Positions 34,509-35,138 of a stretch of DNA of 48,989 bases are shown here, piece by piece. The position numbers and the translations under genes were made by a program. Below the pieces are notes generated by a model. The model did not search any database. It worked only from the letters and a program-made list of their open reading frames with translations, and was not told where the DNA came from. The first letter of the stretch is position 1. Every line of letters starts with the position of its first letter. Source of the stretch: a virus (Duplodnaviria; Heunggongvirae; Uroviricota; Caudoviricetes). The DNA lies in IMG/VR virus record IMGVR_UViG_2541047945_000011, one strand, 5' to 3'.

Positions 34509-34640
34509 CAGAATCCTTCCGGATAATTAGCTCTCCCCTTTAAGGGACCATCCCTCTTATCCCTGCGCGCTACTTAAGTATTTTTGATTCTATTCCGGCA
34601 CCGTCCAGAACTTCAAATGCGTTGAAAATAAAAACAAAAA

Positions 34641-34662
34641 CCCGCCGAAGCGGGTTAAGTGC
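34641..34662 (-). terminator. Intrinsic terminator at the 3' end of the hok mRNA
   Basis: Minus-strand AACCCGCTTCGGCGGGTT followed by TTTGTTTTTATTTT. Confidence 0.5.
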
Positions 34663-34724
34663 GGGTGCGTTGAGAATGCCTGCCACATCAGAGGTGGCGA
34701 GGGATTTCTCCCTCGCCGGGTCTC

Positions 34725-34880
34725 TTACTCCTCAGGTTCGTAAGCTGTGAAGACAGCGACCTCCGTCTGGCCGGTTCGGATTCGTACCTCGCAGAGGTCT
34801 TTCCTCGTTACCAGTGCCGTCACTATGACGGTTAAACAGATGACGATCAGGGCGATTAACATCGCCTTTTGCTGCTTCAT
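34725..34880 (-). CDS. hok: Hok-family type I toxin (51 aa)
   Basis: Translation MKQQKAMLIALIVICLTVIVTALVTRKDLCEVRIRTGQTEVAVFTAYEPEE is the canonical Hok/Gef pattern; below the 60-aa cutoff so absent from the ORF track. Confidence 0.85.
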   Translation of the reverse strand: MKQQKAMLIALIVICLTVIVTALVTRKDLCEVRIRTGQTEVAVFTAYEPEE

Positions 34881-35138
34881 AGCCTGCTTCTCCTTGACCT
34901 TTCGGTCCGTAAGAGGCTAATCTCTATGTGTCGCATAGATATGGCCTCAGATTAATGTTAAGCGTCTTGCAGGACGCGTAATGTTAACTGGGGCTTTTCT
35001 CTATCTGCCTTTTGGTGTTCATGCCTGAGACAGATAGCCTCAAGCACCCGCAGTTATTCTACTTAACTAAGATTTCCCCGCAAACCGTTTTTGTCCGGCA
35101 CAGTAAATATCCAACTAAACCAATGGCGTTCGCTGTAT

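What the first reader, a model, noticed from the sequence alone, without database searches (positions are those of the whole stretch)
34640..35100. hok/sok-type type I toxin-antitoxin locus inside the nin region
A 51-aa canonical Hok peptide (34725-34880, minus strand) is present with a terminator hairpin at its 3' end and about 220 nt of upstream leader. The leader would carry the mok overlap and antisense Sok RNA, but I did not map those. The peptide is below the ORF-track cutoff. Such loci stabilise the prophage and may contribute to abortive-infection-like killing.
Basis: partly seen in the sequence, partly recalled or inferred. Interest (0 to 1): 0.4.

Follow-up and report, generated by a model that had tools for sequence, protein, structure and literature searches.

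The report
Intact hokD toxin-antitoxin locus in prophage
This is an ordinary, already well-known hok/mok/sok RNA-controlled toxin-antitoxin cassette (the complete form of E. coli hokD) sitting in a lambda-like prophage; all its regulatory parts look intact, and its only slightly unusual feature is a very short leader reading frame.

Summary
A 51-aa Hok peptide is encoded at 34725-34880 (-). It matches Pfam HOK_GEF at E 1e-23 and is identical to E. coli K-12 HokD/RelF. Upstream lies a full-length match to Rfam RF01794 (106.7 bits), and downstream an intrinsic terminator.

None is disrupted.

Folding alone reproduces the published switch. The tac/fbi closed form is favoured by about 11 kcal/mol in the full-length RNA, while the open and closed forms are equal in energy after 3' trimming. 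Covariation across 67 loci supports the pairings.

Unlike K-12, where relBE replaces the leader, this copy is complete. It lies between the replication genes and Q, which is the nin-equivalent region.

The one deviation is mok. It has only 19 codons, and its TGA overlaps the hok ATG (ATGA). Published R1 mutagenesis indicates this should still permit coupling. The exact allele occurs in roughly 780 E. coli genomes.

The locus is annotated hokD in RefSeq, and matches occur in 4938 of 5426 E. coli genomes. Verdict: already known, low interest. Its biological role (prophage stabilisation, lysis assistance or phage exclusion) is untested.

The parts
35056..35061 (-). hok promoter -10 box TAGAAT. 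A weak -35-like TTGCGG lies at 35078-35083 (3 of 6 matches, 16-nt spacer).
   Evidence: Located. It aligns with the TATGAT of the R1-type locus, which is the experimentally validated hok -10 box in PMC9841398. The consensus scan did not call it because the -35 is weak. The -35 assignment is inference.
34632..35049 (-). Predicted full-length hok mRNA, about 418 nt. The +1 at 35049/35048 is inferred by homology; the 3' end lies in the terminator T tract.
   Evidence: Rfam RF01794 model position 1 falls at 35049. The fold has MFE -167.7 kcal/mol, z -7.45. Neither end has been determined experimentally.
35038..35049 (-). tac (translational activator element), mRNA nt 1-12, GGGUGCUUGAGG
   Evidence: It pairs with fbi in the MFE fold of the full-length RNA. 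It pairs with ucb in 5' fragments. The tac/fbi helix is 90.4% paired in 67 loci, with U-A changed to C-G in 12 of them.
35021..35031 (-). Partner of tac in the nascent 'metastable' hairpin (mRNA nt 19-29)
   Evidence: The fold of nt 1-40 pairs nt 3-13 with nt 19-29. This matches the transient structure described in PMC9841398.
34990..34996 (-). ucb / anti-SD (mRNA nt 54-60, AAGCCCC). It pairs with the mok SD region in the closed form and with tac in the open form.
   Evidence: The tac/ucb helix is 96.7% paired across 67 loci but almost invariant, so it offers little covariation.
34951..34988 (-). Sok-target hairpin of hok mRNA (nt 62-99). Its complement forms the Sok terminator hairpin.
   Evidence: One pair is split 32 A-U to 28 G-C across loci.
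34945..34948 (-). mok Shine-Dalgarno GAGG (mRNA nt 102-105), 8 nt upstream of the mok ATG
   Evidence: The GAGG columns are at least 90% conserved in the alignment. The SD/dcb helix is 95.5% paired.
34877..34936 (-). mok leader ORF: ATG at 34936-34934, 19 codons (MRHIEISLLRTERSRRSRL), TGA at 34879-34877 overlapping the hok ATG as ATGA
   Evidence: The class also occurs in 11 of 80 viral contigs and in E. ruysiae, E. whittamii, Erwinia and Kalamiella loci. The exact 61-nt allele has a best match at 99% identity or more in 778 E. coli records.
34913..34917 (-). dcb (downstream complementary box, GCCUC, mRNA nt 133-137); pairs with the mok SD in the open form
   Evidence: It lies in the GCCTCTTAC block, which is invariant among the 11 loci.
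34890..34893 (-). hok Shine-Dalgarno GGAG, 9 nt upstream of the hok ATG and inside the mok frame
   Evidence: Read directly from the sequence. CAAGGAG is at least 90% conserved.
34725..34880 (-). hok (hokD) coding sequence, 51 aa plus stop
   Evidence: RefSeq annotates the identical DNA as hokD, WP_000813254.1, the same protein accession as in K-12-type genomes.
34696..34717 (-). GC-rich stem-loop just after the stop codon (mRNA nt 333-354). Presumed 3' protective hairpin of the processed (truncated) hok mRNA.
   Evidence: A 9-bp stem in the fold. It is 97% paired across 67 loci with compensatory changes; one pair is split 34 A-U to 27 G-C. Its role is inferred from R1 (PMC9841398).
34663..34675 (-). 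fbi (fold-back inhibitory element, mRNA nt 375-387, UCUCAACGCACCC); pairs with tac
34629..34656 (-). Intrinsic terminator of hok mRNA: stem AACCCGC/GCGGGTT (34656-34639) followed by a T tract
   Evidence: It is the only terminator-like site in 34400-35400.
34894..34923 (+). Predicted Sok promoter: -35 TTGACC (34894-34899), 18-nt spacer, -10 TAATCT (34918-34923)
   Evidence: The equivalent positions in relatives read TAACCT or TATCCT, which fit TANNNT. PMC9841398 places its Sok promoter mutation in the dcb sequence, which lies in this promoter's spacer next to the -10. Activity was not tested.
34930..35002 (+). Predicted Sok antisense RNA, about 70 nt. It has a single-stranded 5' end, a long hairpin and a UUUUCUCU tail, and is complementary to the mok start codon, the mok SD, the target hairpin and ucb.
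   Evidence: The fold gives -29.8 kcal/mol, z -4.41, with 0 of 200 shuffles as stable. The ends are inferred from the promoter spacing and the U tract.

Best explanation
This is a complete hok/mok/sok type I toxin-antitoxin cassette. It is the untruncated form of E. coli hokD, carried in the nin-equivalent region of a Qin-like lambdoid prophage.

The proposed mechanism follows the plasmid R1 model, with each step marked as seen here or inferred.
1. A weak promoter makes a roughly 418-nt hok mRNA. While it is being transcribed, its 5' end (tac) is held in a local hairpin. Seen in the fold.
2. In the finished RNA, tac pairs with fbi near the 3' end. The mok ribosome-binding site is masked by ucb, so the RNA is neither translated nor bound by Sok. 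Seen in the fold and supported by covariation.
3. Slow 3' trimming back to the GC-rich stem-loop removes fbi. tac can then pair with ucb, exposing the mok start region. The energetics are consistent; the processing itself is inferred.
4. Ribosomes translating the 19-codon mok frame run through the hok Shine-Dalgarno and terminate on ATGA. They re-initiate at the hok AUG to make the 51-aa membrane toxin. Inferred.
5. As long as the prophage is present, a short unstable antisense RNA (Sok) is transcribed from TTGACC-18-TAATCT on the opposite strand. It pairs with the mok start region and blocks this pathway, probably with RNase III cleavage. The sequence features are seen; expression and decay are inferred.

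What the cassette does for the prophage is not established.
For: Peptide: Pfam HOK_GEF at 1.2e-23 and PHROG 'MokW-like host killing' at 2.8e-33. RefSeq annotates the 100%-identical DNA as hokD.

Leader: a full-length Rfam RF01794 match, 106.7 bits.

Folding:
- The MFE of the full-length RNA contains the 12-bp tac/fbi helix and the ucb/SD pairing.
- nt 1-40 form the metastable hairpin, and nt 1-60 and 1-135 form the tac/ucb and SD/dcb stems.
- The closed form is favoured by 11.2 kcal/mol in the full-length RNA. The two forms are equal in energy (0.2 kcal/mol apart) once nt 362-418 are removed.
- Fold z-scores are -7.45 for the mRNA and -4.41 for Sok.

Covariation in 67 loci from Escherichia, Kluyvera, Citrobacter, Photorhabdus, Erwinia, Pantoea and a plasmid:
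- The closed structure is 81.9% paired, against 36-49% when partners are slid.
- The open structure is 85.9% paired, against 35-51%.
- 38 and 21 pairs respectively show double changes, with 0 of 500 shuffles reaching the observed values.

mok: it has a GAGG SD and an ATG, and its frame stays open to the hok ATG. [quoted passage not shown] The allele is common.

A close relative: the locus in Stx2 phage I encodes a peptide with 47 of 51 identical residues and a near-identical leader, and I take it to represent hokW-sokW. hokW-sokW of Sakai prophage Sp5 was shown experimentally to act as a type I TA system (PMC8621323).
Against: - Nothing about expression, processing, Sok abundance or toxicity of this copy can be tested here.
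- For the whole truncated RNA, the unconstrained MFE still picks the closed/metastable form by 0.2 kcal/mol.
- The tac/ucb and SD/dcb helices are almost invariant, so covariation says little about them.
- The structure tested was derived from the window sequence itself, which inflates its advantage over the slid controls.
- The hok -35 is poor, and the Sok promoter has a non-optimal 18-nt spacer.
- A mok stop lying exactly on the hok ATG was not among the cases tested in R1.
Confidence: 0.85

Rival explanations
1. The cassette is structurally recognisable but dead. The 2-nt shorter patch after the mok ATG is a frameshift that truncates mok to 19 codons, uncouples hok translation and leaves a silent relic.
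For: Most copies encoding the identical HokD peptide carry a 70-codon mok (66 of 80 viral contigs). Relative to the -58 class, the window lacks 2 nt immediately after the ATG. Earlier work summarised in preprint 10.1101/2025.08.07.668861 suggested that chromosomal hok/sok loci are inactive.
Against: The short frame still covers the hok SD and ends on the hok ATG. [quoted passage not shown]

The same ATGA arrangement arose through different indels in at least three lineages: hokD-type, hokC-type in E. ruysiae and E. whittamii, and Erwinia/Kalamiella.

The exact allele persists with an intact hok ORF, with best matches at 99% identity or more in 778 E. coli records. All other elements are intact.
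Confidence: 0.1
2. hok here is expressed mainly as a passenger of the prophage early-right (pR-type) operon and not from its own promoter. Read-through transcription during induction collides with the sok promoter, Sok falls, and Hok is made as a lysis helper. In this view the cassette is a phage-release accessory and not an addiction module.
For: hok is on the same strand as cro, the replication genes, rem, RusA and Q. No terminator-like site lies between 35400 and the hok promoter, and the first one is hok's own. For hokW-sokW, sokW RNA disappeared and HokW appeared after mitomycin C in a RecA-dependent way, and deleting the locus halved phage release (PMC8621323).
Against: The hokW-type locus I examined sits near att and the ea genes, not in the nin region, so the same transcriptional geometry cannot be assumed. 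The conserved 5'-terminal tac, the tac/fbi pairing and the conserved -10 box argue that a transcript starting at its own promoter matters. No expression data exist for this copy.
Confidence: 0.25
3. The cassette acts as an abortive-infection or phage-exclusion device that protects the lysogen against other phages. A shut-off of host transcription would deplete Sok and release Hok.
For: [quoted passage not shown]
Against: The same preprint found no enrichment of hok near defence systems. The T4 effect was modest and depended on high copy number. Nothing in the window bears on the question.
Confidence: 0.15

Closest known systems
hok/mok/sok of plasmid R1 (parB locus), the paradigm type I toxin-antitoxin system
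   Same: The element order is the same: promoter, tac, ucb, Sok-target hairpin, mok SD/ATG, dcb, hok SD, hok, 3' stem-loop, fbi, terminator. The alternative pairings, the antisense promoter position and the Hok/Gef peptide family are also the same.
   Different: The peptide is divergent; PMC8621323 reports 44% identity between R1 Hok and the closely similar HokW. The target hairpin carries an extra 18 nt compared with the Rfam consensus. mok has 19 codons ending on ATGA, against 70 codons starting at -58 in R1 (PMC9841398). The host replicon is a prophage, not a plasmid.
E. coli K-12 hokD (relF) in the Qin prophage
   Same: The Hok protein is identical (WP_000813254.1). The downstream neighbours are the same (rem, DUF968/ydfU, Q-like antiterminator), as are the 3' UTR and terminator.
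   Different: In K-12, homology begins only at window position 34894, 14 nt before the ATG. relB-relE replace the promoter, tac, ucb, mok and most of the sok promoter. The window carries the complete regulatory leader.
hokW-sokW of Sakai prophage Sp5 (933W-type Stx2 phage)
   Same: It is a prophage-borne 51-aa Hok. The copy in Stx2 phage I, a 933W-type phage that I take to represent hokW, has 47 of 51 identical residues and a near-identical leader. hokW-sokW was shown to be a functional type I TA system (PMC8621323).
   Different: Its mok is the in-frame 70-codon class, annotated as ORF-33c. The locus lies near att and the ea genes and not between P and Q. The C-terminal four residues differ.
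hokC/mokC/sokC (gef) of the E. coli chromosome
   Same: It belongs to the same Rfam and Pfam families and has the same leader architecture. Some hokC-type loci (E. ruysiae, E. whittamii) also have the 19-codon ATGA mok.
   Different: It lies in a core-chromosome location, has a shorter target hairpin, and encodes a 50-aa peptide with His at position 33.

Membership tests
[quoted passage not shown] | Small hydrophobic Hok/Gef peptide of about 50 aa | tested here: met
   PF01848 at 82.9 bits against a cut-off of 22, E 1.2e-23, covering profile positions 1-42 of 42.
[quoted passage not shown] | hok mRNA 5' leader matching the family covariance model above its gathering score | tested here: met
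   RF01794 at 106.7 bits against 59. The match is full length (1-157), on the hok strand, and ends on the hok ATG.
[quoted passage not shown] | Long-range tac/fbi pairing between the 5' end and the 3' UTR (closed, inactive form) | tested here: met
   A 12-bp helix appears in the MFE fold. It is 90.4% paired in 67 loci, with U-A changed to C-G in 12 sequences. The closed form is favoured by 11.2 kcal/mol.
[quoted passage not shown] | Alternative tac/ucb and mok-SD/dcb pairings (open form) and a nascent metastable hairpin | tested here: inconclusive
   All three form in folds of 5' fragments. The open form is equal in energy to the MFE after 3' trimming. The helices are 96-97% paired across loci, but they are nearly invariant, so there is no real covariation test.
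[quoted passage not shown] | mok leader ORF with its own SD, translated through the hok initiation region | tested here: met
   GAGG lies 8 nt before the ATG at 34936. The frame is open for 19 codons, covers the hok SD and stops at ATGA on the hok start. The length is atypical, since 66 of 80 close relatives have 70 codons. Translation itself was not tested.
[quoted passage not shown] | Antisense Sok RNA with its own promoter, complementary to the mok initiation region, ending in a hairpin and U tract | tested here: met
   TTGACC-18 nt-TAATCT is present on the + strand. The roughly 73-nt RNA folds to -29.8 kcal/mol with z -4.41. Only sequence features were tested, not expression.
[quoted passage not shown] | 3' exonucleolytic processing of hok mRNA, RNase III cleavage of the duplex, differential RNA stability, and toxicity of Hok | not testable with these tools
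   These need northern blots, 3' RACE, RNA half-life measurements and toxicity assays. The conserved 3' stem-loop at 34717-34696 is present.
nin region of a lambdoid (pro)phage | Located between the replication genes (O/P equivalents) and the late antiterminator Q, on the same strand | tested here: met
   The annotation of the 100%-identical record gives Cro/CI, YdaT, DnaT-like, P..., hokD, rem, DUF968, RusA, antitermination protein, all on one strand. PHROG Q-like and HNH/DUF968 hits confirm the downstream genes.
K-12-type truncated hokD (third gene of relBEF) | The hok leader is replaced by relB-relE, with no mok or sok | tested here: not met
   The window has the full leader. K-12-type genomes align only from query position 247, which is window position 34894.

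The most novel reading that the evidence does not exclude
The 19-codon mok ending in ATGA may be a distinct and selectively maintained way of wiring the hok switch. It would work by pure termination-reinitiation coupling, and it would avoid making the N-terminally extended Mok-Hok fusion that the in-frame 70-codon class must produce.

Two observations fit this. mok occupies all three reading frames across the family. The patch just after its ATG, which corresponds to the 5' end of Sok, is the most variable part of the leader. Together they suggest that indels there are tolerated or favoured because they give each copy a private Sok/target specificity.

In a prophage, the co-orientation with pR transcription could add induction-triggered loss of Sok.
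Probability: 0.25. Interest if true: 0.4.

Novelty: already known. Interest (0 to 1): 0.15.

Why it matters
It matters little beyond annotation. It shows that this prophage carries the complete, probably regulatable form of hokD and not the K-12 remnant, and it gives coordinates for mok, Sok and the RNA switch elements that genome annotation omits.

A minor general point is that mok length and frame are free to vary (three frames, 19 to about 70 codons) so long as ribosomes reach the hok start. This agrees with the R1 mutagenesis and explains why automatic mok annotation is unreliable.

Tried and rejected
1. I tested whether the short mok is a one-off lesion and rejected it. The class occurs in 11 of 80 viral contigs, the exact allele has best matches at 99% identity or more in 778 E. 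coli records, and the arrangement occurs in three separate lineages.

2. I checked whether the unconstrained fold of the 3'-trimmed RNA would flip to the open form. It does not. It keeps the metastable/closed form by 0.2 kcal/mol, so I claim only that trimming removes an 11 kcal/mol bias.

3. My first hand-entered SD/dcb register was off by one nucleotide. I discarded it and regenerated the pair lists from the computed folds.

4. I looked for a tRNA-Arg-like hairpin around the TACG Tyr47 codon, to support TadA editing. It gave only -2.5 kcal/mol, which is not convincing.

5. The consensus promoter scan found neither the hok nor the Sok promoter. Both assignments rest on homology and spacing.

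6. I searched the literature for earlier descriptions of mok frame variation. I found none in the accessible papers. Pedersen & Gerdes 1999, Gultyaev et al. 1997 and Steif & Meyer 2012 were not available to read, so the point may already be published.

7. I did not use the large protein-homology, structure-prediction or metagenome tools, because the identity of the locus was settled without them.

Full report
**Observation**

The minus strand of 34725-34880 encodes MKQQKAMLIALIVICLTVIVTALVTRKDLCEVRIRTGQTEVAVFTAYEPEE, 51 aa. It matches Pfam HOK_GEF over the whole profile (82.9 bits, E 1.2e-23) and PHROG 251 'MokW-like host killing' (2.8e-33). Rfam RF01794 ('sok antitoxin') matches 35049-34878 full length at 106.7 bits against a gathering score of 59.

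That match is on the hok strand and ends exactly on the hok ATG. The model therefore describes the hok mRNA leader, in its 'open' fold, and not the antisense RNA. The only terminator-like site in 34400-35400 is a 7-bp GC-rich hairpin with a T tract at 34656-34639. The transcribed leader is 169 nt and not about 220, and the terminator T tract runs slightly below the stated start of 34640.

**Context**

The 581-bp region is 100% identical to E. coli AR_0013. There RefSeq annotates the ORF as hokD (WP_000813254.1) inside a lambdoid prophage. The gene order is cI-like/Cro, YdaT, DnaT-like, P, several small genes, hokD, rem, DUF968, RusA, antitermination protein, then lysis genes, all rightward on one strand. 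PHROG hits confirm the Q-like antiterminator and the DUF968/HNH protein.

'Inside the nin region' is therefore correct in the positional sense. Matches occur in 4938 of 5426 complete E. coli genomes, with a median of 2 and up to 9 per genome, and in 79 phage records. In K-12-type genomes the same protein is encoded downstream of relB-relE, and homology starts only at window 34894, which keeps just the hok SD. The window thus holds the complete form of a locus that is truncated in K-12.

**Anatomy**

mRNA nucleotide n corresponds to window coordinate 35050 - n.

- **hok promoter.** A -10 box TAGAAT (35061-35056) aligns with the TATGAT of an R1-type plasmid locus. That box was validated by mutation in R1 (PMC9841398). 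The -35 is weak.
- **Full-length fold.** From +1 (35049), the MFE fold of the 418-nt transcript pairs nt 1-12 (tac) with nt 375-387 (fbi). It also pairs GCC/CAG at nt 56-62 (ucb) with the mok SD region at nt 100-106.
- **Nascent and open forms.** The first 40 nt alone form the tac 'metastable' hairpin. nt 1-60 and 1-135 form the tac/ucb stem, the Sok-target hairpin and the SD/dcb stem.
- **Energetics.** Forcing tac/ucb costs 11.2 kcal/mol in the full-length RNA (-156.5 against -167.7). It costs only 0.2 kcal/mol once nt 362-418 are removed (-136.6 against -136.8). The fold is much more stable than shuffles (z -7.45).
- **Sok.** On the + strand, TTGACC (34894-34899), 18 nt and TAATCT (34918-34923) form a promoter-like site. 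The RNA predicted from about 34930 to 35002 folds into a long hairpin with a U-rich tail (-29.8 kcal/mol, z -4.41). It is complementary to the mok ATG, the mok SD, the target hairpin and ucb.

These features correspond one for one to the elements defined for R1 (PMC9841398, PMC3851714).

**Comparative test**

I aligned 67 distinct loci. They come from Escherichia species, Shigella, Kluyvera, Citrobacter, Pseudocitrobacter, Photorhabdus, Erwinia, Pantoea, Kalamiella, viral contigs and an IncFII plasmid.

| Structure | Cells paired | Slid controls | Pairs with double changes | Shuffles reaching observed |
|---|---|---|---|---|
| Open | 85.9% | 35-51% | 21 | 0 of 500 |

The tac/fbi helix is 90.4% paired, and its U4-A384 pair is C-G in 12 sequences. 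Compensatory changes are frequent in the target hairpin and in the 3' stem-loop.

There are caveats. The structures were derived from the window sequence itself. The sequences are related to one another. The tac/ucb and SD/dcb helices are almost invariant, so they are consistent with the model but not tested by covariation.

**mok**

The frame starting at ATG 34936 (GAGG 8 nt upstream) runs 19 codons, and its TGA overlaps the hok ATG as ATGA. Across relatives the mok ATG sits at three offsets from the hok ATG.

- **-57:** in frame with hok, giving a 68-71-codon N-extended Hok.
- **-58:** a third frame, 55-69 codons. This is the R1 arrangement according to the coordinates in PMC9841398.
- **-56:** 19 codons ending in ATGA, as in the window.

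Because hok codon 2 is always AAR, any mok in the -56 frame must stop on ATGA. Among 80 viral contigs encoding the identical HokD peptide, 66 are -57, 11 are -56 and 3 lack a recognisable leader. The exact 61-nt allele of the window has a best match at 99% identity or more in 778 E. coli records.

The -56 state also arose through different indels in hokC-type loci of E. ruysiae and E. whittamii and in Erwinia/Kalamiella. [quoted passage not shown] I therefore regard the short mok as a functional variant and not a lesion. This is an inference, because a stop lying exactly on the start codon was not tested in R1.

**Function**

What it does for the prophage is open.

- The nearest tested relative is hokW-sokW of prophage Sp5. 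The copy in Stx2 phage I, which I take to represent it, has 47 of 51 identical residues and a near-identical leader.
- hokW-sokW behaves as a type I TA system. sokW RNA is lost after mitomycin C in a RecA-dependent way, and the locus doubles phage release (PMC8621323).
- That locus has the in-frame mok and lies near att, not in the nin region.
- According to preprint 10.1101/2025.08.07.668861, earlier work found that chromosomal hok loci did not mediate post-segregational killing. The same preprint reports that hok is enriched in prophages but not near defence systems.
- In the window, hok is co-oriented with early-right transcription, and no terminator is predicted upstream of it. Read-through during induction could therefore interfere with sok. 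This is a hypothesis only.

**Verdict**

This is a textbook system, already annotated as hokD in the identical public sequence, and extremely common. Novelty is 'already known' and interest is low.

The only mildly new points are the three-frame plasticity of mok and the hypervariable patch at nt 101-130. That patch has an entropy of 0.34-0.50 bits, against 0.15 bits or less in all but one other 10-nt bin of the leader, and it coincides with the 5' end of Sok. I did not find these points described in the papers I could read, and the 2026 survey says explicitly that it left mok unanalysed.

Noticed in passing
window 35139-35357 (-): A hydrophobic small ORF lies directly upstream of the hok promoter. 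It is 72 aa from a GTG, or 59 aa from the ATG at 35318, which has a GGGGGA Shine-Dalgarno. It has no Pfam or PHROG match and is not annotated in the 100%-identical RefSeq record.
   Followed up: partly
window 34740-34742 (-), within TACGAA: The Tyr47 codon TAC of hok sits in a TACGAA motif that is invariant in all 67 aligned loci, including the R1-type plasmid. A preprint (10.1101/2025.08.07.668861) states that hokC, hokD and hokE mRNAs undergo TadA A-to-I editing that recodes this Tyr to Cys. The local hairpin predicted here is weak (-2.5 kcal/mol).
   Followed up: partly
window 34920-34949 (mRNA nt 101-130): This is the most variable stretch of the leader among loci encoding the identical HokD peptide. 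It covers the mok start hairpin and corresponds to the 5' end of Sok, so it could set copy-specific Sok/target recognition in genomes that hold up to 9 copies.
   Followed up: partly
window 30377-30566 (-): Full-length Rfam match to the sRNA STnc100 (132 bits), downstream of the Q antiterminator region.
   Followed up: no
window 42621-42672, 42912-42988, 43013-43100 (+): Rfam matches to DicF, isrK and C4 antisense RNA are clustered near the immunity/dicB end of the prophage.
   Followed up: no
window 31266-31339, 31443-31515, 48012-48098 (-): Three tRNA genes. Two of them lie just downstream of the Q-like antiterminator, as is typical of Stx-type and other lambdoid prophages.
   Followed up: no
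L018, L023 (genome contigs); H41 (phages): hokD sequences nearly or fully identical to the E. coli one appear on very small contigs labelled Acinetobacter idrijaensis and Xanthomonas pisi, and in a record named Actinobacillus phage vB_Apl-pPE4. These are probably contamination or mislabelling and not real host range.
   Followed up: no
L037 (hok at 1201 and 1831), L046 (hok at 801 and 1201): Photorhabdus contigs carry two hok copies a few hundred bases apart. One copy in L037 has an internal deletion.
   Followed up: no
L057 (IncFII plasmid pMTY1886) versus R1 coordinates in PMC9841398: A plasmid locus whose Hok peptide matches, at 100%, the R1 Hok sequence I recalled from memory has its mok ATG at -57 (in frame with hok). 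The published R1 coordinates give -58. So the mok frame differs even between loci that encode the same peptide.
   Followed up: partly
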